NCBI GenBank assembly: GCA_964456305.1
Contig: CAYWAT010000001.1
Span: 23,001-82,876, forward strand
From: an uncultured Polyangiales bacterium
Lineage (GTDB): Bacteria > Myxococcota_A > Polyangia > Polyangiales > CAYWAT01
DNA: 59,876 nucleotides
Reading direction: 5' to 3'
Shown here: positions 898 through 15,126 of the stretch, piece by piece
Numbering within the stretch: the stretch's first letter is position 1
Layout of the letters: each line of letters starts with the position of its first letter
Notes under the pieces: generated by a model
Seen by the model: only the letters and a program-made list of their open reading frames with translations
What the model was told of the DNA's origin: nothing
Databases searched by the model: none
Translations under genes and position numbers: made by a program

Positions 898-2364
898 CTA
901 GTTAACCTTTCCAGTTTTCACGGTCTTGTCCCAACGCATTTCGGCGCCGCGCAGCTCTTTGATGTAGGCTCCAAAGGTCACCGCGCATAAAAAGGGACCA
1001 TATCCTCCGATCAGCAGCATCAATGGTGCAAGACGGCGCAATCTCGGTCGAATCTCGGCTTCTTTCGCGCCCCAAGATACCAGCATGGCAATGGAGATCC
1101 ACGAATAAAGAAACGCACGAAACAGTGTAAGCGTTGTTGCACCGACATAAGGCGCGATCAATTCCACTAAAGGTGCGTAAAGCGGGGGCCATAGCGCGTA
1201 GATGATCACACTAAGAGAGATGATTCCAGGAAAAAGAATCCCCTCTAACCAGGTGCGCCGTGCTGACTCCCAGTCCACCACCATCGAAAGCAGGGTAACG
1301 ATCAGATAGACCACCCCGGCGATGACCCAAAAACCACGAAAGAATGACCAGGATAAAGGCTCATTGATACACAACAGTATTAATAAACCTAAGGATGTGC
1401 CGATTTGAAACAAGGGCATCAAAAAGATGGAAAACCATAAAATCCCCATCGAAAAGGATCCCATAAAAGGATGGGCATCGCGATTGAACCACAGGCGTCG
1501 GAATACCGAGGTGATTTGTACATTGCCCCGCGCCCAACGCAGGCGCTGTTTCCATAAGCCCAAAAGGTCGTCGGGTTCCTCCGCGTAAACGATGGCATGG
1601 GGTTCAAAGAGAGCCTTGCGACCGTTGAGCTGGGTACGAAAAGTAGTGAAGGTATCTTCGGCGAGGGTGTTGCTAAAAATCTCCCCACCGATGGCCATCA
1701 TATTTTCGCGACTATGCAGCTGGGCTCCGCCGGATAGGCAAGCCAAAAAGCCCAGCACATTTTGCGCACGTCGTGAAGCTCCGGTGGCGGTGATGTATTC
1801 GAAACCGATGTAACGCTGCACATAGTTAGGACGCTGACTGCCTTCTTTAATATAGGCAGTCACGGCGCCCACTTTGGGATCGGCAAAATGGCGAGCCATG
1901 CGTCCTAGCGAATCGGGGGTGTAGATCACATCGGCGTCCATGATGAGAACCGACTCGGTCCAGTCGCTGCGCCACAGATACTGCAAACCATAGTTGAGAG
2001 TGTGCGCTTTGCCCTCGCCACCAGCCACACGACGAATATGAAAGACCCGGTTGGGAAAACGCTTTGATTTTTCGATAACGATATGTGGCGTTTCATCGCT
2101 TGAGGCATCGTCCACCACAAATACGCGCAGGCGATCTTTGGGATAGTGCAGCCGCATCAAGCGCTCGATGGTGGTGCCGATGACCGCCCCTTCATTCCAT
2201 GCTGGGATGATAATGCTTACACGTGGAAAACGTTGTCCGGCCCGTTCGAGATGCGTCGCGAAGAGGGAGACCATCACCAAGAGGTATTGGTAAAGTCCTG
2301 CTAGCACTGGCACTGTGCCCAAGCACACGAGGATGATGCAGACAATGCTAAGGGCAGTGAGCAC
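898..2364 (-). CDS. membrane-integrated processive family-2 glycosyltransferase (BcsA/PgaC/NodC-like synthase, no PilZ domain)
   Basis: 488 aa. An N-terminal TM segment is followed by a GT-A domain with IIIPAWNE, VVDDASSDET, MDADV and QRLRWARG (the Q-x-x-R-W signature of processive beta-glycosyltransferases), then about five hydrophobic helices. GTG start. Confidence 0.85.
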   Translation of the reverse strand: MLTALSIVCIILVCLGTVPVLAGLYQYLLVMVSLFATHLERAGQRFPRVSIIIPAWNEGAVIGTTIERLMRLHYPKDRLRVFVVDDASSDETPHIVIEKSKRFPNRVFHIRRVAGGEGKAHTLNYGLQYLWRSDWTESVLIMDADVIYTPDSLGRMARHFADPKVGAVTAYIKEGSQRPNYVQRYIGFEYITATGASRRAQNVLGFLACLSGGAQLHSRENMMAIGGEIFSNTLAEDTFTTFRTQLNGRKALFEPHAIVYAEEPDDLLGLWKQRLRWARGNVQITSVFRRLWFNRDAHPFMGSFSMGILWFSIFLMPLFQIGTSLGLLILLCINEPLSWSFFRGFWVIAGVVYLIVTLLSMVVDWESARRTWLEGILFPGIISLSVIIYALWPPLYAPLVELIAPYVGATTLTLFRAFLYSWISIAMLVSWGAKEAEIRPRLRRLAPLMLLIGGYGPFLCAVTFGAYIKELRGAEMRWDKTVKTGKVN

Positions 2365-2444: not shown

Positions 2445-3584
2445 TCAAGGCGAAGGCGTGTGTAATCGCAGCCTTGTCGAAGATGTTTTGCGCTGATCTT
2501 TATATGGTTTAGGGGGTAACGTGGGCGCGGTTACAGTGCTCATCGGCGTGGCCTGATAACCGATCATATGCTCAACATCCTGTGGGCGAATGAAACGCTC
2601 TTCGAGGAAGCGCACCACAGCGATTTCGGCGAATTCGCCGACGCTTCGTTTGGGACTTATTCCTTGCAATTCTTCGATCGCGAGGCGTGGCATGTTAATG
2701 CCGCTAGCCACGGTGAGGGGCATGGTGCCGGGAATGCGCGGATTGATTTCGAGTAGGCAAGCGTTGCCCTCAGCATCGCGTCGGAACTGAACATTGATCA
2801 CGAAGCGTAACTTGAGACCTTCTGCCACTTTGGTAGCGGCGCTGATGAGTTCCTGATCTTTGACGGTACAGCTCATCACCGCAACACCGGAATCCACCTT
2901 GAGTCGCTTGCGTGGCACAGCGGCAAGGGCTTCTCCTGTGGAACTTAAGAGTACGTCGACTGAGTACTCTTCGCCGGGCAAATACTCTTGCACAATCCAT
3001 TGGTCGTTGCGTTCGATGAGGTCGAGCTCGTCCGTGCTGCGGATGATGCGAAAGCCACGTGAGCCACTGCCGCTGCGTGGCTTGAGGATAAAGGGAAGCT
3101 GCCACTGGCTGGCATCAAAGTAATCATCAAAGAGGGCCGTCTTTGGAAGGAGTGCAAGGCCTTGGCAGCGTTGAGCAAAGTCCCATTTGTCGAGGCAATG
3201 ACCCAGGCTTTGCTCATCGCCCGCGAGCAATATCATGATGCCATGCTCTTCAAAGCGAATTCGTTCTGCAGCCAGAGGAATCAACTCTGAATCTACCGTG
3301 GGCACCAAAATATGAATCCCGCGTGTTTGACATTCATTGAGTACCGTATCGACAAAGTCTTCGGATTTGCCTGCGGGTAAACGCATCCGTTGAGATGGCG
3401 GAACTAGGTAAAGACCGGCGGCATGTGCATCCATATCGGCAGCATGAATTTGCACATTGCTCTCACGTAGTGCTTTCATCAGCGAAATCGCGGCAGGTCC
3501 TCCTGCCCCGGTGACAAGCACTTTAGTTGCGGATTCACGATGAGTATTCTGCATCACGTCAAAAAAGTGCAAATCGTGCACCAA
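2445..3584 (-). CDS. ATP-grasp family ligase
   Basis: Motifs are KVLVTGAGGPAAISLMKAL (N-lobe), PFILKPRSGSGSRGF (Gly-rich ATP loop), QEYLPGEEYSVDV and LLEINPRIPG (E-x-N metal/ATP site). The start is uncertain (TTG 3584 or ATG 3554). It lies directly upstream of the GT2 gene, co-oriented. Confidence 0.75.
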   Translation of the reverse strand: MVHDLHFFDVMQNTHRESATKVLVTGAGGPAAISLMKALRESNVQIHAADMDAHAAGLYLVPPSQRMRLPAGKSEDFVDTVLNECQTRGIHILVPTVDSELIPLAAERIRFEEHGIMILLAGDEQSLGHCLDKWDFAQRCQGLALLPKTALFDDYFDASQWQLPFILKPRSGSGSRGFRIIRSTDELDLIERNDQWIVQEYLPGEEYSVDVLLSSTGEALAAVPRKRLKVDSGVAVMSCTVKDQELISAATKVAEGLKLRFVINVQFRRDAEGNACLLEINPRIPGTMPLTVASGINMPRLAIEELQGISPKRSVGEFAEIAVVRFLEERFIRPQDVEHMIGYQATPMSTVTAPTLPPKPYKDQRKTSSTRLRLHTPSP

Positions 3585-3697
3585 CTTGAATGTGTTTTAA
3601 TTGATTGCTCCAGGAGCAGGAAAACAGTGCTTATCTCTATCATGCTAATAGCTATACATGTTTTTTCTTTTTCCATTATGGAATGCTCTGTTTCAAA

Positions 3698-4465
3698 ATG
3701 AAACGCGACTGTTTCATTTTGGGTAGTCTAAAGTGCGTTGCTTATCTTGTTTTTCTGTTTTGTATGTTCTCTTGCGAGGCTTTCAGAGGAGGAAAATCAT
3801 TGCCCGTTCCTGAAGCTTGGGCATCTCATAAAATTCATTTTGCCGAACGCGACTGGTATGCACGCCATAGTGATGTGCTTGTCGCTGCTGGGCCAAATCG
3901 ATGGAGTTCGACCTCAGATTCGCTTAGCGTGAACGACCAAGATCAGCTGACAATGCGCATTATCAATCGCGATTATCGTTGGTATGCCAGTGAGATAAGC
4001 ACGCCTTGGCCTTTTGAGCATGGCGCTATGCAGGCTTTGCTGGAAGGTCCTTTGGGTGAGTTGGATGCCAATGTTATTTTTGGCTTTTTCTTATATAAAA
4101 ACGATCATAGCGAACTTGATATCGAGCTTGGGACTTGGGGGAAGTTCAGTGATTACAACGCTCAGTTTGTGGTGGCTCCCCCCATCGAAGCGTCACGCTT
4201 ACATCGTTTTGCGTTGCCCGAAGAGTGTCATAAAGCGATGACATCCATTTGTTTTGGTTCGCGTTATTTTGTCTTTCGTTGGCAGTGTGAAGGTGGTGCG
4301 ATCACGACATGGCGGCATGCGACCACCTTTGTCCCCGAGCCCAGGCAGCATCATGTACACCTCAATCTTTGGATGTTTAAAACCCGTCCACCTCAACAAC
4401 GCAAGTCCGTGGCGATTAAGATTCACGAGGTACGATTTATACCTACAGACTCTTGTACTAATTAG
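3698..4465 (+). CDS. GH16-like (concanavalin-A-fold) glycoside hydrolase lipoprotein
   Basis: The internal ATG at 3698 gives MKRDCFILGSLKCVAYLVFLFCMFSC, a signal peptide with a lipobox-like Cys. The motif NDHSELDIELGTWG matches the GH16 E-x-D-x-E catalytic signature. The ORF-track start at 3605 lies in an AT-rich divergent promoter region and is probably too far upstream. Confidence 0.55.
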   Translation: MKRDCFILGSLKCVAYLVFLFCMFSCEAFRGGKSLPVPEAWASHKIHFAERDWYARHSDVLVAAGPNRWSSTSDSLSVNDQDQLTMRIINRDYRWYASEISTPWPFEHGAMQALLEGPLGELDANVIFGFFLYKNDHSELDIELGTWGKFSDYNAQFVVAPPIEASRLHRFALPEECHKAMTSICFGSRYFVFRWQCEGGAITTWRHATTFVPEPRQHHVHLNLWMFKTRPPQQRKSVAIKIHEVRFIPTDSCTN

Positions 4466-4485
4466 TCAATATATAAGCAAAGAAT

Positions 4486-4501
4486 TGGCATGGAGTTCGC
4501 A
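4486..4501 (+). promoter_or_regulatory. candidate sigma-54 (-24/-12) promoter, TGGCAT-N5-TCGCA
   Basis: TGGCATGGAGTTCGCA has the GG (4487-4488) and GC (4499-4500) dinucleotides at the canonical 12-nt offset. Caveat: the predicted transcription start would be only about 3-4 nt before the GTG start at 4515, leaving no room for a leader. Patterns of this looseness are also expected several times by chance in 60 kb. Confidence 0.2.
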
Positions 4502-4514
4502 TCGTATATAAGGT

Positions 4515-5621
4515 GTGAATGAAGTATCATCCCGTGCCCGCATACTCCTGGTCGAGGATTCTTCCGAGCAAGCTCTGTTGGTTGAAACCTGGCTTGTTCG
4601 TCATGCTGGTTATCAAGTTATAACGGTTGCTTCCTGTGCTGAGGCCATCAAGGCACTATACAGTCAGCCCTACGATCTGGCTTTGATCGATATTGAACTT
4701 CCCGATGGCATTGGGATTGATGTCGCTCTAGCTGCAAAGAAGGCCAATGCACATATCTGCACCATGGTCATGACAGCGCACACGCAGTTTGATTACGCTT
4801 TGCAAGCTATGCGCTCACAGGTGGACGAGTTCATGGTCAAGCCACTGAATCGTGAGCAATTGATCGATTCGGTTCATTCCTTGTTGGAACGCGCTTCGAT
4901 GCGACAGAACCTTCACCGTCGCACGATTCTTGCTGTAGGGGCGCATCCGGACGATGTCGAAATCGGCTGCGGCGGGATTCTTTTGCGCCATGCATCCTTA
5001 GGTGATCGTATTGTAATTCTCACGCTTACCAGCGGTGAAAGCGGCGGCGATGTGTCCACTCGGGCTCAAGAAGCACAATGGGTTGCTAAGGAAATGGGCG
5101 CTGAACTGCGCATGGAAAATTTTCAAGATACGCGTTTGTCGTCGGGGATTGATACAATTGATGTGATTTCAAAAACTGTGCGTGAGCTTGATCCCAATAT
5201 TGTGTACACGCATTCAGAGCACGATCTGCATCAAGACCATCGCGCTGCGCATCAAGCCACCTTGGTTGCGTCCCGTTTGGTGACGAATGTGCTTTGTTAC
5301 CAGAGTCCCTCGAGTACAACGGCCTTTTGCCCGTCGCTCTATGTAGATATCGAAGAGCTAATTCCACGCAAGCTGCGCTTGATTGAAGCCTATGCGTCGC
5401 AAACAGCGAAGTGCAGTTATTTACAACCCGATTTGATTCAAGCTACGGCGCGTTACTGGGGGCGTTTTGCTGGGTATCGCCATGTTGAACCTCTAGAAGT
5501 TGTGCGGGCAATGGATTATCGCTGGTCGCGCGGGTCATCGATGCAACCCGCTGCATCGGCTTCATTTCAAGGTCGCAAGGTCGATACGTCTTTGCCCTGC
5601 ACGCGTGCTTTATCGAGATAA
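4515..5621 (+). CDS. response-regulator receiver fused to PIG-L/LmbE-family N-acetylglucosaminyl deacetylase
   Basis: The N-terminal REC has an intact acidic pocket (LLVEDS), the phospho-acceptor context [11 protein letters not shown], Thr (MTAH) and Lys (VKPL). The C-terminal part carries the PIG-L signature [15 protein letters not shown] and the zinc-site motif [17 protein letters not shown] start. Confidence 0.85.
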
Positions 5622-8428
5622 GCGCCGAGCGATCCGCAGATCTTTCGGGCAAGAGCTGCGTTATTTTGTTTCGCGGCTTGCTCTAATTGAGCTCCAAGTT
5701 CCGATACCTTTGTGACGCCATACAATGTTCCTGAGCCCTTCATGTTGTGACCCACCCGACGCACTTGCTCAAAATCGCCTGCCTGAATGAGTGTTGGGAT
5801 ATTTTTAATATCGCGTTTTCTGCTCTCTAAATAGCCTGGCAATAACTCCGCCACGTCGTCATCATCGACCTGGATCCAAAAGGGCTCGTTGTGAGACGAG
5901 TCGCTTTCCTGTTGTGTGTGCGCGGCATCTGAAAAGGAGGGGTGTAATTGCTCGATATCGGTATCACGATCACCGACTGTGATCGTGTCGTATTGACTCC
6001 TCGTGTTTTGGGCAGACACGGCTTCGTCGATGAGCTCAACGAGCTGTGCAAGTCGAAAAGGCTTTGCCAGTTGTCGTGAACAACCTGCATCAAAACATCG
6101 CTTTTTGATTTCCGAAGTGTCGTGAGCGGTGGTGGCGATAAGGGGGATGTTTTGAATGTTGGGTAGCATGCGAAGTTTGGCGGCCAGGTCCCACCCCTTC
6201 ATATCGGGAAGTTCAACGTCGAGGAGAATAACATCAAGACGATGCGACTGAGCGATGCTAAGCGCCTGGTTTGCAGTTTCGGCGCTGAGCACTTGGTAGC
6301 GCCCTGTGGTTTGCAGCATGCGCTCCATGACCAGTCGGTTTTCTACGAAGTCGTCAACAATCAGCACTGTTGGAAAATTAGCAACCCATGATGCGACGGT
6401 TTCGGCGAGGACTTGGCGTTGCACGGGTTTGGTAAGGTAGTCATTCATGCCCACGCTGAAGCATCGGTCGCGATAATCTTTAAGCGCATGCGCGGTTAGA
6501 GCGATAATGGGCACGCGGGTGATCCATGCATCTTTTTCCCATTTGCGAATGCGTTCTGTGACTTCAAACCCAGTTGTATCGGGGAGATCAATGTCCATAA
6601 TAATGGCATCAAATATACCGGATAAAGCGAGCTGCTCTCCTTCCGCACCTGTTTTAGCTAAAGTGACTTTAAATCCTGATTTGCTTAGCACTTGGTTGAT
6701 ATACAGTTGATTGTCTTCGTTGTCCTCAACCACCAGAATAGCTTCTCCATTTCCTGCCGAAACTGGGTGCATGGTTGTGCCTGTGGTCGAAAAGAATTTC
6801 TTTGTCTGGATTTCTTTATCCCGACTCATTGCCTGATGAATGGCTTCTTTGAGGGGTGCGAGTCGCACAGGCTTGGGAATGGAAGGGATGCTTTGGATAT
6901 CGTGAATAGGGCTCTTAAATGTAGTTAGCGGTGCAATAAAAACCGTTGGTATATTTCGCTCGATGGTTTTTAAAAATGAGAGAATGCGTCGTTGATGCTC
7001 GTAAGAGCTGTCGACGATAAGCAGGTCAATCTTTTCATTGTGCAAAATGCTTGAAATTGCAGACTGATCATGTGCCATGGCGACATCCCAGTTCCATGAC
7101 TGGAGAATGTTTCTGAGTGATTGATTGCTTGCCAGTTTGGTATTCGCCCAAAAAGCTGCTTTTTTATGGCTCCCTTTGAAATCGATGTCATCGGCCTTGC
7201 GAGGCATGATCGATGCCTCGATGATAGGGAAAGACAACTTGACAATGAAGGATGAACCTTTGTTTAGCGAGCTCTCGAGTTCCAGAGAACCATGCATAAT
7301 ACTAATAATTGAACGCGTGATGCTTAAGCCTAGTCCTGTGCCTCCATAGGTGCGATTTGTTGCATTGTTGGCTTGGACGAAACGGTCGAAAATAGCATTT
7401 TGCCGGTCAGCAGCGATGCCAATGCCAGTATCTTCTATGCATAGTTGACACTGCCATAGTCCGTCTTGAAGATCGGTACTTTGGCTTACTCGCACAATGA
7501 CATGACCTTGAGATGTAAATTTAACCGCGTTGCCAATGAGGTTAAACAAAACCTGGCGAATGCGCGCTGGGTCGCCGATGACTCGGTCAGGAGGAAAGAC
7601 GTCCCACATCACACATAGTTCCAATTTTTTGGATTCTGCCTTTCCAGAAAAAGATTCGACGACGTCTTCGATGACTTCAACTAGAGAAAAGGGTGTTGAT
7701 TCAAGGGCGATTTGTCCTGATTCGATTTTGGAAAGATCGAGAATATCGTTGATCAGTGATAAGAGCGCTTCGGAGCTTGCTTCGACAGATCGTAGGTAGC
7801 GCGCTTGCTCATTTGAAAGGTCGGTGAGAGAAAGCAGGTCAGACATACCAAGAATGGCGTTAAGAGGAGTGCGTATTTCATGACTCATCACTGCTAAGAA
7901 ATTTGATTTCGCGCGATTGGCTTCTTCTGCATCATTTTTCGCCTGCAGGAGCTTTTCATTCATGTCGTGTATTTTTTGTGCGTTCTTTTGTGATTCTGCG
8001 ATGCTTGAGGTTAATTGGCTTAGTAAGTTCAAGTATTCTGCGAGAGGATTGTGAGCCGCAAAATCATTTTCTTGTAGACCTTTTTCTGTGAGTTCGTTCA
8101 GCGATGTAATCCATGGCGAACCAAGATAGAGATATCCTTTGCTGAGTTGCACAAACTGACCGCGTAATAGTAGTCGTTTTTGTCGTTCTTCAAGAAGATA
8201 GATTTTGCCTACATGCTGGTAAATGTTGTCGTCTGTAAGCTCGTCCTCTGCATGCACAGATTGAAAATAACAACTGATGGTTGTTCCTTGCTTAATCTGC
8301 GGAAGGGCTTTGCGTAAACTGCGACCGGTTTCTTGAATGCGTCCTTGGTTATCAATGTAGATAAAAAATGGAAATATGTTTTTGATGTTCTCGTCTTTAA
8401 GTGCGTATTTATCCTGTTTTATGTGCAT
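5567..8428 (-). CDS. cytoplasmic hybrid histidine kinase: HNOBA-like sensor, HisKA, HATPase_c, pseudo-receiver, two receivers, Hpt
   Basis: There are no TM segments. The N-terminus ([47 protein letters not shown]) resembles the HNOBA domain of soluble guanylate cyclases ([30 protein letters not shown]). H-box: [14 protein letters not shown]-boxes: DTGIGI and GGTGLGLSI. The two receivers have [19 protein letters not shown] and [19 protein letters not shown]. The C-terminal Hpt has GHNMKGSG. Its 3' end overlaps the convergent gene by 55 nt. Confidence 0.9.
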
Positions 8429-8730
8429 CTGTCTAAATCGTTCAGTGGATTTCGTCTTTGATCATTCACTGTGCTGTGTCTGCGATGATTCTTCTGATGT
8501 CTTTGCGACTTATGTAACCCTTTGATTCAACGCGATGCGGCTGACTCTGCATTTTAGGATGTGTCCTTGATGACGAATTGATGAATTTCGTATTCTTACG
8601 GATAACGATCCAGGTCAGCGTATCATGCGCATAGAGGGAAAATCTACGCTTTCTCTCTGGGCCCACTTTCCTCTTCTCATGAGTGTAAGAGGTTTGTTAC
8701 GCTTTCCATGTGTATTCTGGTGGGCAACAT

Positions 8731-10161
8731 ATGCCGCTCGTCTTGGTCGTGGATGACGATGCGTCGATGCGCATGATTTTAACCAAATGGTTAACGCGCG
8801 CGGGGCTACAGGTTGAAAGTTGCGCCGATGCGGAAAGCCTGATTTTAAAGCTGCCTAACTGTGAACCACAGGCGATTTGCCTGGACTTAGGCCTACCCGG
8901 TATCGATGGTCTTGAGGCGCTGCCGTTGATTCGCAGTTATCACAGCAAGGTCCCGGTGATCGTCTTGACGGCAGAAGAAGGTGTGCAGACGGTGGTGGAA
9001 GCGATGCGCAAAGGCGCCTTTGATTACCTGTCAAAACCGCCTCGTCAGGACAGTTTTTTGAGTTCTGTGCAACGCGCTCTGCGTTGGTTTTCTCTTGTGG
9101 ATCAGTCTTCTGTGTCGCCCTCAGATCCGGTGCATCATGACCCCGTGCATATGATTGGTGTGTGCATGGCAATGCAACGGGTCATTAGTAAGGTTAACAA
9201 AATCGCGCCCACCAATATCACCGTGCACATTCAAGGTGAGAGTGGGACGGGCAAAGAGCTGATCGCGCGGGCTATCCATGCGCGCAGCGAACGCGCGAAG
9301 CATCCTTTTGTGGCTGTAAACTGCGGTGCGATTCCGGAGACGCTGCAAGACTCGGAATTCTTTGGCCATGAGAAAGGCGCGTTCACCGGCGCTGCACGCA
9401 GTAAATCGGGACGTTTCGAGCAGGCCCATGGCGGCACTCTCTTTCTCGATGAAGTGGCTGAGTTGTCTGCCTCTATGCAGGTCAGACTATTGCGGGTGCT
9501 GCAAGAGAGACGCTTTGAACGTGTGGGTGGATCCCGTTTGATTGAATCCAATTTTCGACTTCTCACTGCGACGCATCGCGATTTACAAGCGATGGTAGCG
9601 CGGGGCGAATTCCGCCAAGATCTCTACTTTCGCATCGCGGTTATGGAGGTTGAGTTGCCGCCCTTGCGCGCGCGCGAAGGTGATATCCCTGTTTTGATTC
9701 GAGGGCTCTTAGAGCGTATCGCCCACGAGCGCGGCATTGAAATCCTGACCGTAGAGGATGAGGCGTTGGCCAAGCTCGAAAGCTACGCATGGCCGGGCAA
9801 CATTCGCGAGCTTTACAATGTGTTGCAACGCGCTTCCGTGCTTGCTGAGGACAATTGCATTCGTGTGTGGGACTTACCGCCTCGCGTGCTCGGTCATACG
9901 ACCTTGCCCGAGGCAAGTCCGCAGCCGAAGAAGGAACAACAATCTTTGCAGGACCCAGTGTCCTTGTCCGCTGTGATGTCTTCGTCTTATCCGCCGATGA
10001 ACCTCGAAGAGCTCGAGCGCTGGGCAATTCAGATGGCCCTCAAGAAAACCGGCGGCAATCTCAGTGCTGCAGTCAAGCGGTTGGGCATTGGTCGCACCAC
10101 GCTCTACCGCAAAATCAAGCAGTACAATTTGAAAACCATGCCTCAAGGTGATGCTACATGA
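8731..10161 (+). CDS. sigma-54-dependent response regulator (NtrC/Fis family enhancer-binding protein)
   Basis: REC ([23 protein letters not shown]), AAA+ domain with Walker A GESGTGKE, the sigma-54 contact loop GAFTGA, Walker B LFLDEV, and a C-terminal Fis-type HTH ([20 protein letters not shown]). ATG 8731 is preferred over GTG 8710 because a GGTGGG lies upstream of it. Confidence 0.9.
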
Positions 10162-11510
10162 CGCGTAAATATTTTGGAACGGATGGCATACGTGGACTTG
10201 CCAATCGCGAACCGATGACTGCACATACCGTGCAACGTCTGGGTCGCGCGTTGGCAGCTCGTTTGTCGCACCCAACGCGCAAACCGCGTGTGGTGATCGG
10301 TAAAGATACCCGTCTGTCTGGCTACTTGTTTGAGACGGCTTTGGCCTCTGGGGTTGTCGCCCAAGGGGGCGATGTATGGTTGACCGGACCCTTGCCCACG
10401 CCGGCGATTGCCTTTTTGACCGCATCGATGCGCGCCGATGCTGGGGTGGTGATCAGCGCGTCGCATAACCCGCATCAAGACAATGGCATCAAGCTCTTTG
10501 GTCCCGATGGATTTAAGCTCAACGATGCGCTCGAGTCTGAGATAGAAGCGTTGATCGATTCCATCGAGGCGGAGAACCAAGGCGCTGACGCTGATGATAT
10601 TGGCAGCGCGACTCGCGTCGATGATGCGGTGGGGCGTTACGTCGTTTTTTGCAAACACACCTTTCCGCGTCACCTCTCTCTCGATGGTATACATTTGGTG
10701 GTGGATTGCGCACATGGTGCGGCTTATCGAACGGCGCCTCTGGTATTTGAAGAACTGGGCGCAACCGTCACTGTGTTAAACGCATCGCCGAATGGCAAAA
10801 ACATCAATCAAGATTCGGGTGCACTGCATCCCGAGGGCTTGTGTGAGGCGGTGCGACAAGAAAAGGCTCATCTTGGCATTGCGCTGGATGGTGATGCCGA
10901 CCGCTTGATTCTGGTCGACGAGCAGGGCGAGCTTCTGGATGGTGATACCGTACTCGCTATTTGTGCACGTGACTTACTAAAGCAAAACCGTTTACCGCGT
11001 CGCACCGCAGTAGCTACCGTGATGTCTAACCTGGGGCTGGAGCACGCATTGCGCAGTGCCGGCGGTAAGCTGATTCGCACCCAGGTTGGGGACCGTTATG
11101 TGGTGGAGGCCATGCGTGAGGGCGGTTTTCATTTGGGCGGTGAGTCTTCGGGGCATCTTATTTTTCTCGATCGCTCGAGCACAGGCGATGGGATTATTGC
11201 TGCCCTTGCGGTGCTTGAGGTGATGATTCGCAGCGAGAAAAGTTTGGGTGAATTACGCAAATGTATTTCTCAGTTTCCTCAGGTGCTACTCAACGTACCG
11301 GTCGCAAACAAACCTGCTCTCGATACCCTCGCTGAGGTACAAAAGTCCATTCAAGACGCGCAGCAACAACTGCGTGACGAAGGGCGCGTATTGGTACGCT
11401 ATAGCGGCACGGAGATGAAGGCGCGCGTGATGGTGGAGGGCGTACAAGAGGAACTGCTTCGCCAACATGCCGACAACATCGCCGAGTCACTGCGTCTTGC
11501 CTGCTCATGA
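10158..11510 (+). CDS. glmM: phosphoglucosamine mutase
   Basis: YFGTDGIRG at the N-terminus, the active-site phosphoserine motif [13 protein letters not shown], the metal loop DGDADR and the sugar loop GGESSGH. The start overlaps the stop of the upstream activator (ATGA, 10158-10161). Confidence 0.95.
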
Positions 11511-11540: not shown

Positions 11541-12893
11541 ATGATGTTGATCAAGGTTCAACGTAAAGCCTTATGGGTGAGCACAGCAGCAATGTTATGT
11601 GCATGGTCCAGCTTGGGAGCGGCAGAGTCTGTGGCATCGCTCGAAGGTGTGCGCGAACGTTTGGCTCATGGTGAAAAAAAATCCGCCTATCGCATGCTCA
11701 AGCGTCTCGTTGCAGAGGGGAATCGCGAGCCCGACGCCTTTCTATTTTTAGGGGTGCTGACCCGCGAGCAAGGCAGTGAGCATTACGACGCGGCTATCGC
11801 TTGGTTTGAACGCGGTCTTGGCTATGACCCGCATTATCCTGCCCTCTTGCTTGAGCTTGCGGTAACCTATTCCTGGGCTGACCAATACGCGAAGTCGATT
11901 GCAACCTACGATCGATTGCTAGGTTTGCAGCCAGACCACCGCGATGCGCAGTTGGGCAAAGCACGGGTGTCCGTGTGGGCCGGTAAGCATGAGGATGCTT
12001 TAGCGATTTATCAGCAGGTCGTGCAGCAGGAACCCAAGCATATCGAGGCTCTACGCGGGATTGCCTTGATTCATCGCATACGCATGCGTTTCGATGAATC
12101 GCGTCGCTACTACCATACGGTGCTGGCGCAAGCGCCTGAGGATGAGGAATCCAAAGAAGGTTTGCGGGAGATTGCGCAGGCTACGCGTTGGCAGCTAGAA
12201 GCCGGTGCTATTTTAGCGGGCAGTCCGTCTCAGTCGCTGCAGTTTGGTGGTCTTGCTAGCGTCGCCTATAAACTGAACCCCGAGGTGACGCTGCGTGCGC
12301 GTTACGTTGCCACAGCACAGCAGGTGTTGCTCGGTCGTGCCGATGAGCTGGGCGATGTAAGTGTGCAGCGCGAGATTCAAAATCTGCAGCATAACGCCGA
12401 AATCAATGCCAGTTTCAAGATCATCGAGTCCTTAACTCTATCGCCGCAATATGGCGTACGCGTCGTTGAGGAGAACGTCACGCATTTGGTTGGGCTGCGC
12501 CTTGATTGGAAGTTTCATCCTCAGTTGGTTTTATTAGGCGGCATGCGACCGGGTTTTTCACACGACGCTGTCATCGAAGCTCTGCTCGATACGGGCATCC
12601 AGTATATTCCCCTCGAGCATCTTTGGCTCATGGTGCAGGGTTTTGTCTTTGTGAATACAGAGTCGCAGCGTAACTGGTCAACATTATTCACCACCTGGAT
12701 TGATTTTTTGAATCCTGTGGCTTTTAAAGTTGGCGCTGGAGTAGGGCAGATACAGTCGGATATTAGCGTGCAATTCTTGGCTGCGATCAATGTATTGATC
12801 ACACGCGATTTTGAAGTCGCAATTAACTATGAAATGCAGCAAATTTTTATCGAGCGTCACATGGGGCAGCTGTCCTTGATATTGAGGATCTAA
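11541..12893 (+). CDS. TPR-repeat protein with C-terminal beta-barrel-like half (small BcsC/PgaA-like outer-membrane export candidate)
   Basis: A signal peptide (AAMLCAWSSLGAAES) is followed by about 200 aa of TPR-like repeats (AIAWFERGLGYDPHYPALLLELA.., YDRLLGLQPDHRDAQLG..). The next roughly 230 aa have alternating hydrophobic/polar strands typical of an OM beta-barrel. The function is inferred from architecture and context only. Confidence 0.55.
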   Translation: MMLIKVQRKALWVSTAAMLCAWSSLGAAESVASLEGVRERLAHGEKKSAYRMLKRLVAEGNREPDAFLFLGVLTREQGSEHYDAAIAWFERGLGYDPHYPALLLELAVTYSWADQYAKSIATYDRLLGLQPDHRDAQLGKARVSVWAGKHEDALAIYQQVVQQEPKHIEALRGIALIHRIRMRFDESRRYYHTVLAQAPEDEESKEGLREIAQATRWQLEAGAILAGSPSQSLQFGGLASVAYKLNPEVTLRARYVATAQQVLLGRADELGDVSVQREIQNLQHNAEINASFKIIESLTLSPQYGVRVVEENVTHLVGLRLDWKFHPQLVLLGGMRPGFSHDAVIEALLDTGIQYIPLEHLWLMVQGFVFVNTESQRNWSTLFTTWIDFLNPVAFKVGAGVGQIQSDISVQFLAAINVLITRDFEVAINYEMQQIFIERHMGQLSLILRI

Positions 12894-12900
12894 ATAACAA

Positions 12901-15126
12901 ATGCTGGCGAGTCGACTTAAGCTTGGGCGTATCGGTTTTGCATTCAGCATCATGTCAGTGCTGCTTTTGTTAACAAATGCCAACGCCTTATCTCAAGACG
13001 AAAATCATCAAGTGCATCGATCGGCATCAGAGACAGAGTCTTTTCGCTTGATGCCCATAGAGCGGCCACTGGTGCTCAAGGGAAGTGAGAGTAGTGCAGA
13101 ATTTTCTATCAACATATCCGATGGTGTCGTTGTTGAACGCGATATAATTCTTTCCTTGCGAGGTAATGTTTCAGAGTTGATTGATGCAAATAAGTCGACA
13201 TTAACAGTGGAGGTCGATCGTCGACCTTTGCGTACTGTTTGGCTATCACGAATTCTGGTTAAGTCATCGGATGACAAAGACAGTGGGCGATCCTTTGCGC
13301 TTGTCATCTCCCTGCGTGATCTCAGTGCTGGATTGCATAACCTGCGTGTGCGCAGTCACTTGCTGATCGATGATGACCCTTGCTTAGACAAGTACGCGGA
13401 TGAGGCATGGATTAAGCTTTCACCGAAGAGCAAGGTATCGGGATATCGCCAGGTCATGCATCGCAAAGACTCAGGTGACCTTAGCCAACTGCAGTCCATA
13501 TGGTCTCGTGATAACTTGTCCATTGCTCTGAGTCCCCCTGCAGCGTTAACCCCCAAGAACGCTCTCGCGGCAATCGAATCCGATCATATGATTCGCGGCA
13601 TGGGCTTTACGCCTCGCTATGAGGCCTCGCCTACGATGGATACGGATGCCAATGACTATGCGGGTGTGTTGCGTTTACGCGTATTAAAGCAAGCCGACGA
13701 TGTTGCCGAGTCTCTGGTTGGCGCTTTGCAAAATGCCCCCAAAGATGCGCATGCGCTTGTTCATTTGGTCGGTTCCGAGCTCACGCTGCTGGCTCGTTCC
13801 GATGCCCACTTGCAGGATGCGGTGCGCATGGTGGCGCTGCCGCAGGTACGGGCGATGTGCCTGGCGTCGCATCCTTGTCTTTTGGGACCGCGCATGCGTA
13901 GGCGTCTGGGATCGGCGCAAGAACAAAGCTTAGGTCGGCGTCATAATACGGGTGCTGATGACCCAACCCAGGTTTTGACCCTGGCTGATGTGGGCTTTCC
14001 GCGCGGTTGGGTGGCCAAAGGGGCGGGCAAGCACACCTTGCGTTTTGTATGGCAGCGACCTTTTTATTGGACTGTCGATCAGTACCCCAATCTACAACTC
14101 TTTGTGCGCTGGTCGCAGGGTGCGCCTTGGCATGAAAAGGGCACTGTTTTGTCTGTTCAAATCAATGGCGTGCCCATTTCCTCGTGGCACTTCGCGCAGC
14201 AGAATAAAAAAGACGGCGTATTTGATTTGCGCCTGCCTGAGGAGCTTTGGCAGGATGAGGCTTGGGTGTTTGAAATCGTCGCACAGCTACGCGCTAATGA
14301 CGACGTTCCCTGTACCGTGACCCGTGATGAGGAGCTCTGGCTCTCCCTTGCTCCAAGCAGTCATCTTCGCGTTGCTCGCAGTGAACGGCAGGGTGAGGGG
14401 TTGGCCGCCTTTTTCCAGCAGGCTAAGAAGCATAAACGCAAGCCAGTCTTAGGCTGGCGCGGACGCTTGGAGTGGCCGACCCTCTTTTTATGGGCATCTG
14501 CACTGTATCCCTTTGCGGTGGAAATTCCGGCGTTGCCATGGCGTTGGGAAGAAGGCAAAAAAAATCAGCGTGCCATGCGCATCATCGCCTTTGGTCATCA
14601 TCATGATACGCGGGGGAGTTTGCGTCGTCGTCGTGCCGGCAACCCGGCTGCACAATTTTGGGTTGATGTGGCTGGCCGCTTTGGGATGCCCTTAGTGCGC
14701 GTCGATGAAAGCGTTCGACTTGTCCATCATCAAGGCAGTAAGCAGAAGGGCGCATGGTTAGAGATCAATTTTCCACATCCGCAGATCAGTTCGGATGACG
14801 ATAATGCATGGGCTGGTTTTCCGCCGGACTACACACAGCTCGTCGGTCGCGAAGTGCTGTGGATAGAGGGTCAGTGGCATAATCTCGAGGACCCCTCGTC
14901 GCAGGCCAAAACAAAGACGGTGCATTATTCTAAAAACTCGCCTTTGGCTGCCCTTAGACAGAAGGCCCATCTTCCCAGTGACGAAGAAAACTTGCTCACG
15001 CGCATTAATCTCATTTGGGCATCATGTTCGGTGATTTTGCTTGTCGGCATTGCTATCTATTGGTGGCGTCGACCTCGGAACAAAGACGATGTTCATGTGT
15101 CTTCTGTGGAAGAGCATTCAGGATGA
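12901..15126 (+). CDS. BcsB-like periplasmic synthase subunit with C-terminal membrane anchor
   Basis: It has a signal peptide and a single C-terminal TM helix (LIWASCSVILLVGIAIYWW). Two internally repeated halves each show the BcsB-type pattern. Examples are LKGSESSAEFSINISDGVVVERDIILSLRGNVSELIDANKSTLTVEVDRRPL, DDPCLDKYADEAWIKL, LSVQINGVPISSW and DDVPCTVTRDEELWLSL. Compare E. coli BcsB: LRGINPNGSIEFGM..LNLEYTPSPSLLPVQSQLKVYLNDELM and QDVCEKPASTTLWLDV. Recognised from memory, not searched. Confidence 0.65.
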   Translation: MLASRLKLGRIGFAFSIMSVLLLLTNANALSQDENHQVHRSASETESFRLMPIERPLVLKGSESSAEFSINISDGVVVERDIILSLRGNVSELIDANKSTLTVEVDRRPLRTVWLSRILVKSSDDKDSGRSFALVISLRDLSAGLHNLRVRSHLLIDDDPCLDKYADEAWIKLSPKSKVSGYRQVMHRKDSGDLSQLQSIWSRDNLSIALSPPAALTPKNALAAIESDHMIRGMGFTPRYEASPTMDTDANDYAGVLRLRVLKQADDVAESLVGALQNAPKDAHALVHLVGSELTLLARSDAHLQDAVRMVALPQVRAMCLASHPCLLGPRMRRRLGSAQEQSLGRRHNTGADDPTQVLTLADVGFPRGWVAKGAGKHTLRFVWQRPFYWTVDQYPNLQLFVRWSQGAPWHEKGTVLSVQINGVPISSWHFAQQNKKDGVFDLRLPEELWQDEAWVFEIVAQLRANDDVPCTVTRDEELWLSLAPSSHLRVARSERQGEGLAAFFQQAKKHKRKPVLGWRGRLEWPTLFLWASALYPFAVEIPALPWRWEEGKKNQRAMRIIAFGHHHDTRGSLRRRRAGNPAAQFWVDVAGRFGMPLVRVDESVRLVHHQGSKQKGAWLEINFPHPQISSDDDNAWAGFPPDYTQLVGREVLWIEGQWHNLEDPSSQAKTKTVHYSKNSPLAALRQKAHLPSDEENLLTRINLIWASCSVILLVGIAIYWWRRPRNKDDVHVSSVEEHSG

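What the first reader, a model, noticed from the sequence alone, without database searches (positions are those of the whole stretch)
4515..5621. Receiver domain fused to a PIG-L deacetylase: phosphorylation-gated sugar deacetylation
Seen: the receiver has all phospho-acceptor residues (ED pocket, D in [13 protein letters not shown]). It is joined directly to a PIG-L/LmbE catalytic domain ([12 protein letters not shown] and an HxxH/DH zinc site). Established: PIG-L enzymes (MshB, BshB, LmbE, GlcNAc-PI deacetylase) are stand-alone metallo-deacetylases of GlcNAc conjugates. Response regulators with enzymatic outputs are mostly GGDEF, EAL, CheB or PP2C types. Inference: deacetylation of a GlcNAc-containing intermediate or polymer is switched post-translationally by the neighbouring Hpt-containing hybrid kinase. 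This is an unusual output class.
Basis: partly seen in the sequence, partly recalled or inferred. Interest (0 to 1): 0.6.

Follow-up and report, generated by a model that had tools for sequence, protein, structure and literature searches.

The report
Phosphorelay-controlled sugar deacetylase in polysaccharide cluster
This gene fuses a phosphorylation-sensing receiver to an intact sugar N-deacetylase; it belongs to a widespread but unstudied gene module that most likely makes a modified amino-sugar polymer under direct two-component control.

Summary
ORF 4515-5621(+) encodes a 368-aa protein with a canonical receiver (D15, D59, T87, F106, K109) joined by one continuous helix to a complete PIG-L/LmbE zinc deacetylase (H144, D146, D147, H239, D241, H242).

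The fusion is not rare. More than 2,600 90%-identity clusters and 289 50%-identity clusters share it, across at least five phyla. I found no paper on it.

It almost always travels with an ATP-grasp ligase, a PgaC/NodC-like processive GT2 synthase, a PHP phosphatase and a histidine kinase. Diderm bacteria add TPR and BcsB-like export parts.

In this window and four other Myxococcota genomes, the neighbour is a hybrid kinase (HisKA-HATPase-REC-REC-Hpt), usually with a sigma-54 activator. A kinase gene accompanies the module when the receiver pocket is intact (32/39 loci). It does not when the pocket is degenerate (0/7) or absent (1/10).

Best reading: a phosphorelay gates cytoplasmic de-N-acetylation of a hexosamine unit, and the ATP-grasp then re-acylates the amine, within a synthase-dependent exopolysaccharide pathway. 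Substrate, product and the direction of gating are untested.

This scan has met the same module on other DNA before (e1-1501669, e1-4786557, e1-1209806, e1-2790704). New here are the conserved Hpt-kinase/activator/receiver-deacetylase triad and the kinase-versus-receiver-integrity correlation.

The parts
4515..5621 (+). REC-PIG-L response regulator/deacetylase, 368 aa. Receiver: residues 10-120 (nt 4542-4874), phospho-acceptor D59 at nt 4689-4691. Alpha5 linker helix: residues 113-134. PIG-L domain: residues 137-332 (nt 4923-5510), zinc site H144/D147/H242. Disordered non-conserved tail: residues 340-368.
5567..8428 (-). Soluble hybrid histidine kinase, 953 aa: HNOBA-like region, HisKA (H-box SHEIRTP), HATPase, two receivers with Asp, and Hpt (HNMKG). 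Probable phosphodonor.
   Evidence: Orthologous kinase cores lie beside REC-PIG-L in L091-L094.
8710..10161 (+). NtrC-type sigma-54 activator response regulator (REC-AAA+-HTH_8). Probable second output of the same phosphorelay.
   Evidence: Homologues at 42-46% identity lie beside the hybrid kinase in L091, L093 and L094, and near the module in L009.
10158..11510 (+). GlmM phosphoglucosamine mutase. It is a second genomic copy and supplies precursor for a hexosamine product.
   Evidence: TIGR01455, 587 bits, over cut-off; two copies over cut-off in the genome
11541..12893 (+). TPR protein; a candidate outer-membrane export or scaffold component.
   Evidence: Conserved in diderm versions of the module.
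12901..15126 (+). BcsB-like periplasmic protein.
   Evidence: PF03170, E 1.3e-12; homologues in L003, L009 and L091-L095
3605..4465 (+). GH16-fold lipoprotein with an invariant SExDxE motif. The likely true start is an internal Met near nt 3683 or 3698. It lies 49 nt upstream of REC-PIG-L on the same strand.
2445..3584 (-). ATP-grasp amide ligase (PylC-like N-terminal domain plus ATPgrasp_Ter). It is the most constant neighbour of REC-PIG-L.
   Evidence: Within 8 kb in 55 of 64 loci.
898..2364 (-). Processive membrane GT2 synthase, 488 aa, with the DxD, TED-like (AEDT) and QRLRW motifs and C-terminal TM segments. PgaC/NodC-like.
   Evidence: Within 8 kb in 47 of 64 loci.

Best explanation
The gene encodes a true response regulator whose output domain is an active zinc-dependent PIG-L N-deacetylase. 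It is the regulated step of a conserved cytoplasmic 'sugar-editing' arm (deacetylase, then ATP-grasp amide ligase, in most lineages with a PHP phosphatase). This arm serves a PgaC/NodC-like membrane synthase that makes an exported hexosamine-based glycan. In this organism the adjacent hybrid kinase autophosphorylates and relays phosphate through its own receivers to its Hpt domain. Hpt then passes phosphate to D59 of REC-PIG-L, and probably to the sigma-54 activator next door, so one signal would set both transcription of the glmM-TPR-bcsB-like genes and enzyme activity. Phosphorylation of D59 would act through the T87/F106 switch and helix alpha5, which is continuous with the strand carrying the AHPDD zinc motif, and so change deacetylase activity. 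The freed amine is then re-acylated by the ATP-grasp ligase. Shown: domain integrity, fold, conserved gene partnership, and the kinase/receiver-integrity correlation. Inferred: substrate (hexosamine precursor, primer or oligomer), re-acylation, direction of gating, and the actual phosphotransfer.
For: Both domains score well above the Pfam cut-offs. The phospho-acceptor pocket and the catalytic residues are invariant in 33 relatives at 42-54% identity. The model is confident, with alpha5 running into PIG-L beta1. The K109-to-H144 spacing is narrow: the mode is 35 aa, and 166 of 179 proteins fall at 31-37 aa. The nearest solved folds are TT1542, archaeal diacetylchitobiose deacetylases, BC1534 and BshB, all GlcNAc-type de-N-acetylases. 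Neighbours within 8 kb in 64 loci: ATP-grasp 55, GT2 47, kinase 44-45, PHP 43. In Microbacterium the operon order is REC-PIG-L > ATP-grasp > PHP > GT2 > REC > PAS-kinase. The GT2 carries the processive-synthase motifs, and its best curated matches are PgaC/IcaA and NodC. A second glmM copy sits in the cluster here, and glmS sits beside the module in L009. A GH16-fold lipoprotein, a TPR protein and a BcsB-like protein occur in diderm versions. The hybrid kinase core HisKA-HATPase-REC-REC-Hpt lies directly beside REC-PIG-L in four other Myxococcota genomes. The kinase's H-box, receiver Asp residues and Hpt His are all present. A kinase lies within 8 kb in 32 of 39 loci with an intact receiver, 0 of 7 with a degenerate receiver and 1 of 10 without a receiver.
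Against: There is no biochemical evidence of any kind. A processive synthase couples synthesis to translocation, so it is unclear how a cytoplasmic deacetylase would reach the polymer; the substrate may instead be a nucleotide sugar, a primer or a short oligomer. This window lacks the PHP phosphatase found in most versions of the module. Relatives with degenerate or missing receivers keep the module, so the receiver is not essential to the chemistry. The loci counted are phylogenetically related (many are Microbacteriaceae), so the correlation overstates independence. The AlphaFold2 model gives no information on the phosphorylated state.
Confidence: 0.55

Rival explanations
1. The module makes a low-molecular-weight glucosamine conjugate or a glycolipid, using mycothiol/bacillithiol/GPI-type logic: glycosyltransfer, dephosphorylation, de-N-acetylation and ATP-dependent ligation. 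On this reading it does not make a polymer, and the receiver gates flux into that metabolite.
For: The enzyme set (GT, phosphatase, PIG-L, ATP-dependent ligase) mirrors MshA/MshA2/MshB/MshC; this comparison rests on my own knowledge. All three tailoring enzymes are cytoplasmic. The GT2 also matches Glyco_transf_21 and HpnI, which are lipid glycosyltransferases. The best curated match of the PIG-L half is BshB1. Stand-alone PIG-L relatives sit with a GT2, an ATP-grasp, a UDP-GlcNAc 2-epimerase and a HAD phosphatase.
Against: The GT2 has the QRLRW/TED/DxD processive-synthase signature and a multi-TM C-terminal half. Diderm versions add BcsB-like, TPR and GH16-fold extracytoplasmic proteins, while monoderm versions lack them. 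The BshB1 score is far below the cut-off (101 against 182 bits). No GT4 or BshC/MshC-type ligase is present.
Confidence: 0.2
2. The receiver is a constitutive structural or oligomerisation domain and the deacetylase is not regulated by phosphorylation. The neighbouring kinase would signal only to the sigma-54 activator.
For: Relatives with degenerate pockets keep the fusion and the module without a nearby kinase; examples are Legionella with D15 replaced by P, and several actinobacterial forms. Some representatives have N-terminal regions that Pfam no longer recognises as receivers. An obvious alternative acceptor, the NtrC-type regulator, lies next to the kinase.
Against: D15, D59, T87 and K109 are invariant across relatives at 42-54% identity, which implies selection for phosphorylation chemistry. 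Kinase genes co-localise with intact receivers (32/39) and not with degenerate ones (0/7). In Actinobacteria the operon has a kinase but no DNA-binding regulator, which leaves REC-PIG-L and a single-domain receiver as the only acceptors.
Confidence: 0.12
3. The PIG-L domain acts mainly as a phosphorylation-dependent binding partner or switch of the synthase complex, taking the post-translational control role that c-di-GMP receptors have in Bcs/Pga/Pel/Alg systems. Catalysis would be secondary.
For: The GT2 has no PilZ or other c-di-GMP-binding domain by Pfam. The module consistently carries its own kinase.
Against: All catalytic residues are invariant. An ATP-grasp ligase is the tightest neighbour (55/64), and that fits a chemical hand-over of a free amine better than a pure scaffold role.
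Confidence: 0.08

Closest known systems
PIG-L/LmbE de-N-acetylases with solved structures: TT1542 (1uan), BshB/BC1534 (6p2t, 2ixd), archaeal diacetylchitobiose deacetylase (8bgn, 3we7), MshB (1q74)
   Same: Same fold (Foldseek target TM-score 0.66-0.83). Same AHPDD and HxDH zinc and general-base residues. All are cytoplasmic enzymes that remove the N-acetyl group of a GlcNAc unit before a further modification.
   Different: All of these are stand-alone enzymes; no solved structure has a receiver attached. The score is below the BshB1 equivalog cut-off. The gene context here is a GT2 synthase with an ATP-grasp, not GT4 with BshC/MshC.
Response regulators with enzymatic outputs (CheB methylesterase, PleD/WspR GGDEF, RpfG HD-GYP, RsbU-type PP2C, PorX)
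   Same: An N-terminal canonical receiver is joined through alpha5 to a catalytic domain. A kinase is encoded nearby. Control is expected to be post-translational.
   Different: The output acts on a carbohydrate N-acetyl group rather than on a signalling protein or nucleotide. I found no description of this output class in the papers searched.
PNAG systems PgaABCD / IcaADBC and other synthase-dependent exopolysaccharide systems (Bcs, Pel, Alg)
   Same: A processive GT2 synthase whose best curated match is PgaC/IcaA. A TPR component and a BcsB-like component. A glycoside hydrolase. Deacetylation is part of the pathway.
   Different: Here the deacetylase is cytoplasmic and of the PIG-L family, not periplasmic and of the CE4 family. 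An ATP-grasp ligase and usually a PHP phosphatase are added. No PgaD or PilZ-type c-di-GMP module was seen; control is by a phosphorelay. The GT2 is far below the PgaC equivalog cut-off (131 against 422 bits).
Nod factor core NodC/NodB/NodA and the mycothiol and bacillithiol pathways (deacetylate, then re-acylate)
   Same: The logic is the same: a GlcNAc unit is de-N-acetylated in the cytoplasm and the free amine is then acylated.
   Different: The enzymes for deacetylation in Nod (CE4 NodB) and for acylation (NodA, MshC, BshC) are unrelated to those here. None of those pathways has a receiver domain or a dedicated kinase.

Membership tests
CheY-like receiver (PF00072) / functional response regulator | Profile match above the curated cut-off | tested here: met
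   65.3 bits against 30.2, residues 10-120
CheY-like receiver (PF00072) / functional response regulator | Acidic pocket, phospho-acceptor Asp, Thr/Ser, aromatic switch residue and Lys | tested here: met
   E14/D15, D59, T87, F106 and K109 are present. D15, D59, T87 and K109 are invariant in 33 relatives and intact in 51 of 63 loci that carry a receiver region.
CheY-like receiver (PF00072) / functional response regulator | Phosphotransfer from a cognate kinase or Hpt domain | not testable with these tools
   Only synteny is available: the hybrid kinase is adjacent here and in L091-L094, and kinases co-localise with intact receivers.
PIG-L/LmbE deacetylase (PF02585) | Profile match above the cut-off, and the fold | tested here: met
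   91.5 bits against 28.2. Foldseek match to 1uan: target TM-score 0.81-0.83, probability 1.0.
PIG-L/LmbE deacetylase (PF02585) | Zinc ligands His/Asp/His, general-base Asp and second His (AHPDD ... HxDH) | tested here: met
   H144, D146, D147, H239, D241 and H242 align to TT1542 and BshB and are invariant.
PIG-L/LmbE deacetylase (PF02585) | Metal-dependent de-N-acetylase activity | not testable with these tools
   Needs an enzyme assay.
Bacillithiol deacetylase BshB1 (TIGR04001 equivalog) | Score at or above the curated equivalog cut-off | tested here: not met
   101.5 bits against a cut-off of 182.5, and only residues 137-247 are matched.
PNAG synthase system (PgaABCD/IcaADBC) | PgaC/IcaA equivalog synthase | tested here: not met
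   TIGR03937 scores 131.4 bits against a cut-off of 422.3.
PNAG synthase system (PgaABCD/IcaADBC) | Extracytoplasmic CE4 deacetylase (PgaB/IcaB) | tested here: not met
   No such domain appears among the cluster genes scanned. The only deacetylase is the cytoplasmic PIG-L fusion.
Processive beta-glycan GT2 synthases (BcsA/PgaC/NodC/chitin synthase type), for the neighbour 898-2364 | D, DxD, TED and QxxRW motifs with a membrane-embedded C-terminal half | tested here: met
   DDASSD, MDAD, AEDT and QRLRW, followed by several hydrophobic segments, are read directly from the translation. Pfam families are Glyco_tranf_2_3 and Chitin_synth_2.
Conserved REC-PIG-L / ATP-grasp / GT2 / PHP / kinase module (uncharacterised) | Co-location of the five gene types | tested here: inconclusive
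   Four of the five are present in the window. A PHP phosphatase was not found in the window or in the 96%-complete genome with the L009 query. A second glmM occupies its position.

The most novel reading that the evidence does not exclude
A His-Asp phosphorelay, rather than c-di-GMP, directly and post-translationally sets the chemistry of a secreted hexosamine polymer. Phosphorylation of the receiver would switch on cytoplasmic de-N-acetylation, and an ATP-grasp would then install a new N-acyl or aminoacyl group. The result would be a previously undescribed N-substituted poly-glucosamine whose charge or substitution pattern is tuned by the signal in real time.
Probability: 0.3. Interest if true: 0.75.

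Novelty: new variant of a known kind. Interest (0 to 1): 0.55.

Why it matters
Response regulators with enzymatic outputs are known mainly for second-messenger and chemotaxis enzymes. A receiver that directly controls a carbohydrate-editing enzyme would add a new output class.

The known synthase-dependent exopolysaccharide systems (cellulose, PNAG, Pel, alginate) are gated by c-di-GMP. They modify their polymers outside the cytoplasm. This module carries its own kinase and edits sugars in the cytoplasm, so it would be a different control and tailoring logic for biofilm-type polymers.

The module occurs in several hundred sequence clusters, including culturable Lysobacter, Variovorax, Microbacterium, Cellulomonas and Legionella. 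The hypothesis can therefore be tested directly. The product could be a new polysaccharide chemistry.

Tried and rejected
- **Homodimer prediction.** Two copies with alignment A1 gave no verdict (score 0.01 against a mark of 0.42). This is no evidence either way.
- **Literature.** Nine full-text searches used combinations of PIG-L, LmbE, COG2120, receiver, response regulator, ATP-grasp and exopolysaccharide. None found a paper on the fusion or the module. Iyer et al. 2009 (PMC3268129) and Galperin 2006 (PMC1482966) are not held, so a mention there cannot be excluded.
- **BshB identity.** Rejected, because the score is below the equivalog cut-off.
- **Sigma-54 promoter scan.** The pattern TGGCAC-N5-TTGCW with up to 2 mismatches gave 35 matches in the window against 42 expected by chance. 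This is no enrichment. The match at 4486-4501, just upstream of the start codon, is therefore not evidence.
- **Sigma-70 and terminator scans of 3400-8800.** Neither was above shuffled expectation.
- **First whole-protein search of 40 same-order genomes.** Only the window's own genome matched, but receiver noise capped the number of candidates scored. I repeated the search with the PIG-L half alone across a 300-genome sample of the phylum.
- **Small membrane peptide downstream of the GT2** (seen in Lysobacter). No convincing one was found in the window.

Full report
**1. Observation**

The ORF at 4515-5621(+) is open, starts with GTG and encodes 368 residues. Pfam finds a receiver domain at residues 10-120 (E 6.8e-18) and a PIG-L domain at residues 139-252 (E 8.2e-26). 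Both are well above the curated cut-offs.

phmmer against solved structures aligns residues 138-339 to TT1542 of Thermus and to BshB. The query's AHPDD falls on their AHPDD/AHSDD, and its HQDH on their HPDH. An AlphaFold2 model built on 33 relatives is confident (mean pLDDT 90.5, pTM 0.80). Receiver helix alpha5 (113-134) runs with only two intervening residues into the first strand of the PIG-L Rossmann-like fold (137-142), which precedes the zinc-binding His144.

Foldseek places the C-terminal half with TT1542, archaeal diacetylchitobiose deacetylases, BC1534, BshB, the teicoplanin pseudoaglycone deacetylases and MshB. The N-terminal half falls with CheY-like receivers. No solved chain combines the two.

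The last ~30 residues are disordered and not conserved. They account for the 55-nt overlap with the convergent kinase gene.

**2. Is the fusion rare?**

No. The word-indexed search returned 2,634 significant 90%-identity clusters among the 8,000 candidates scored. The best 120 all carry PF00072 plus PF02585 and are about 335 residues long. Source names include Lysobacter, Variovorax, Microbacterium, Burkholderiales, Xanthomonadales, Gemmatimonadota and Rhodothermales.

The exhaustive search of 50%-identity representatives found 289 clusters at E<=1e-30, most matched over the full length. A scan of species-representative genomes found at least 582 loci, and the table there names Actinomycetota, Gamma-, Beta- and Alphaproteobacteria, Polyangiaceae and Longimicrobiales.

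Within the window's own phylum the distribution is patchy. The PIG-L half was found in 5 of 300 other sampled genomes, each time inside a 351-396-aa frame. It is the only PIG-L gene in the window's genome, which is 96% complete.

**3. Are both halves under selection?**

In a 33-sequence alignment at 42-54% identity to the query, the invariant columns include D15, D59, T87 and K109 (plus P110) of the receiver. They also include H144, P145, D146, D147, E149, H239, Q240, D241, H242 and R243 of the deacetylase. Position 106, the aromatic switch position of CheY, is F, Y or L.

R183 and D205 are also invariant. They align with an Arg and an Asp of BshB. From memory of the MshB/BshB literature, these residues contact the GlcNAc ring; I did not test this.

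The spacing from K109 to the catalytic His is narrow. The mode is 35 residues (90 of 179 proteins), and 166 of 179 fall within 31-37. This fits a mechanical coupling through alpha5.

**4. Gene context**

In the window the genes around the fusion are:

| Coordinates | Strand | Product |
|---|---|---|
| 898-2364 | - | Processive GT2 synthase |
| 2445-3584 | - | ATP-grasp ligase (PylC-like) |
| 3605-4465 | + | 286-aa protein with no family hit |
| 4515-5621 | + | REC-PIG-L fusion |
| 5567-8428 | - | Hybrid kinase |
| 8710-10161 | + | NtrC-type sigma-54 activator |
| 10158-11510 | + | GlmM |
| 11541-12893 | + | TPR protein |
| 12901-15126 | + | BcsB-like protein |

- **GT2 synthase.** It shows DDASSD, MDAD, AEDT and QRLRW, followed by several hydrophobic segments. 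Its best curated matches are PgaC/IcaA and NodC, both far below their equivalog cut-offs.
- **The 286-aa protein.** It has a lipoprotein-like N-terminus and an invariant SExDxE motif. It folds as a GH16 beta-jelly roll, with the top Foldseek hits all GH16 beta-glucanases at probability 1.0.
- **glmM.** The cluster copy is one of two in the genome that score over the cut-off.
- **L009.** In the Polyangiaceae locus L009, glmS lies beside the module.

Together these point to an exported beta-linked hexosamine glycan.

**5. Conservation of the context**

I used 64 loci that encode a full-length relative; many are on truncated contigs. Within 8 kb of the fusion I found:

| Neighbour | Loci (of 64) |
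|---|---|
| ATP-grasp homologue | 55 |
| GT2 homologue | 47 |
| Histidine kinase | 44-45 |
| PHP phosphoesterase | 43 |
| TPR protein | 10 |
| BcsB-like protein | 2 |

The TPR and BcsB-like proteins appear in the diderm lineages.

- **Microbacterium.** The operon reads REC-PIG-L, ATP-grasp, PHP, GT2, single-domain receiver, PAS-kinase.
- **Lysobacter.** The same genes are present with a TPR protein, a kinase and a receiver.
- **Legionella.** The order is GT2, TPR, ATP-grasp, fusion.
- **This window.** It lacks PHP, both in the window and in the genome as searched with the L009 protein.
- **Relatives without a receiver.** More distant PIG-L relatives still sit with a GT2 and an ATP-grasp. In Amycolatopsis a UDP-GlcNAc 2-epimerase and a HAD phosphatase join them. 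The deacetylase-ligase-GT core is therefore older than the receiver fusion.

**6. The kinase link**

The window's kinase has an intact H-box (SHEIRTP), Asp residues in both receivers and the Hpt HNMKG motif.

In four other Myxococcota genomes from at least three families, the gene directly beside REC-PIG-L encodes a hybrid kinase. It is 31-35% identical over about 780 residues to the window's kinase and has the same HisKA-HATPase-REC-REC-Hpt core, but different N-terminal sensors (PAS, or none recognised). In three of the four, an NtrC-type activator at 42-46% identity lies next to that kinase. L009 has the same activator near the module.

Across all fetched loci with at least 7 kb on both sides, the counts are:

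| Receiver pocket | Kinase within 8 kb |
|---|---|
| Intact | 32 of 39 |
| Degenerate (for example Legionella, D15 replaced by P) | 0 of 7 |
| No receiver | 1 of 10 |

The loci are related to one another, so this is an association and not a statistical test. It is nevertheless what is expected if the fused receiver is a real phosphorylation target of a kinase encoded in the module.

**7. Mechanism proposed**

- **Shown.** The protein is a canonical receiver and a catalytically complete PIG-L enzyme in one chain, tightly coupled through alpha5. It is embedded in a conserved hexosamine-glycan synthase module that carries its own kinase.
- **Inferred.** The hybrid kinase relays phosphate H to D to Hpt, then to D59 of the fusion and to the sigma-54 activator. 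Phosphorylation changes deacetylase activity. The freed amine is re-acylated by the ATP-grasp, as in the NodB/NodA, MshB/MshC, BshB/BshC and teicoplanin Orf2*/acyltransferase pairs (my own knowledge).
- **Open.** The substrate could be a nucleotide sugar, a primer or a short oligomer. By analogy with known synthase-dependent systems, cytoplasmic enzymes in such operons usually make precursors. The acyl group and the sign of regulation are also unknown.

**8. Rivals**

- **A small GlcN conjugate or glycolipid.** This is kept at about 0.2 because the GT/phosphatase/deacetylase/ligase set mirrors mycothiol synthesis. The processive-synthase motifs and the diderm-only export and hydrolase genes argue against it.
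- **A purely structural receiver.** This is kept at about 0.12, because degenerate-receiver relatives exist.
- **A scaffold or switch role.** This is unlikely, given invariant catalytic residues and the constant ATP-grasp partner.

**9. Comparison and novelty**

The protein passes the tests I could run for membership of the receiver and PIG-L families. It fails the BshB1 equivalog test, and its neighbour fails the PgaC equivalog test. The system works like a PNAG-type synthase system with a Nod- or mycothiol-like deacetylate/re-acylate step, but it is not a member of any of them.

I found no publication on the fusion or the module in nine searches. Two relevant older papers are not held.

This scan has already met the same module on other DNA (e1-1501669, e1-4786557, e1-1209806, e1-2790704, e1-3937109). 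Those notes agree with what I derived independently, but they are not independent evidence.

Two things are added here. One is the conserved triad of sigma-54 activator, Hpt-containing hybrid kinase and receiver-deacetylase in Myxococcota. The other is the association between receiver integrity and kinase presence.

**10. Verdict**

The gene is a member of a widespread, catalogued but uncharacterised family, and is best described as a new variant of enzymatic-output response regulators and of synthase-dependent exopolysaccharide systems.

Noticed in passing
window 3605-4465 (+): The 286-aa gene just upstream of the fusion has no Pfam or NCBIfam hit. It has a lipoprotein-like N-terminus and an invariant SExDxE motif, and it folds as a GH16 beta-glucanase jelly roll. 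Only a handful of homologues exist, all Myxococcota. It probably trims or degrades the exported glycan.
   Followed up: yes
window 10158-11510 (+); also G000 contig C38:14763-16082: The genome has two glmM genes that score over the curated cut-off. The cluster copy sits where relatives (L003, L009, L091-L094) have a PHP phosphoesterase, and no PHP homologue was found in this genome with the L009 query.
   Followed up: partly
window 4486-4501 (+): TGGCATGGAGTTCGCA keeps the GG and GC of a -24/-12 sigma-54 promoter and ends 14 nt before the GTG start of the fusion. The pattern is not enriched in the window (35 matches found, 42 expected), so this may be chance.
   Followed up: partly
window 5567-5621: The convergent REC-PIG-L and hybrid kinase genes overlap by 55 nt at their 3' ends. 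On the REC-PIG-L side the overlap encodes its non-conserved, disordered tail; on the kinase side it lies after the Hpt domain.
   Followed up: no
L032, L039, L052 (Legionella rowbothamii, Legionella sp., L. drozanskii): The Legionella versions keep D59, T87 and K109 but have Pro at the D15 position, and no kinase lies within 8 kb. The module there reads GT2, large TPR protein, ATP-grasp, fusion.
   Followed up: partly
L074:9983-16458 (Amycolatopsis pigmentata): A receiver-less PIG-L relative lies with a GT2, an exosortase-like membrane protein (weak match), an ATP-grasp, a UDP-GlcNAc 2-epimerase and a HAD phosphatase. This looks like an older, unregulated form of the same sugar-editing set.
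   Followed up: partly
L009:16850-18676 (+): A full-length glmS gene lies between the PHP-TPR-BcsB arm of the module and the NtrC-type activator in the Polyangiaceae relative. It is a second, independent case of a hexosamine-supply gene recruited to the module.
   Followed up: partly
proteins P0142, P0170, P0201, P0208 (representatives): Architectural variants exist. One has REC-REC-PIG-L (P0142). Several have a 125-195-aa N-terminal region that Pfam no longer recognises as a receiver.
   Followed up: partly
G000 as a whole: The genome is only 2.7 Mb at 96% estimated completeness, which is small beside the sampled same-order genomes (most 3-11 Mb).
   Followed up: no
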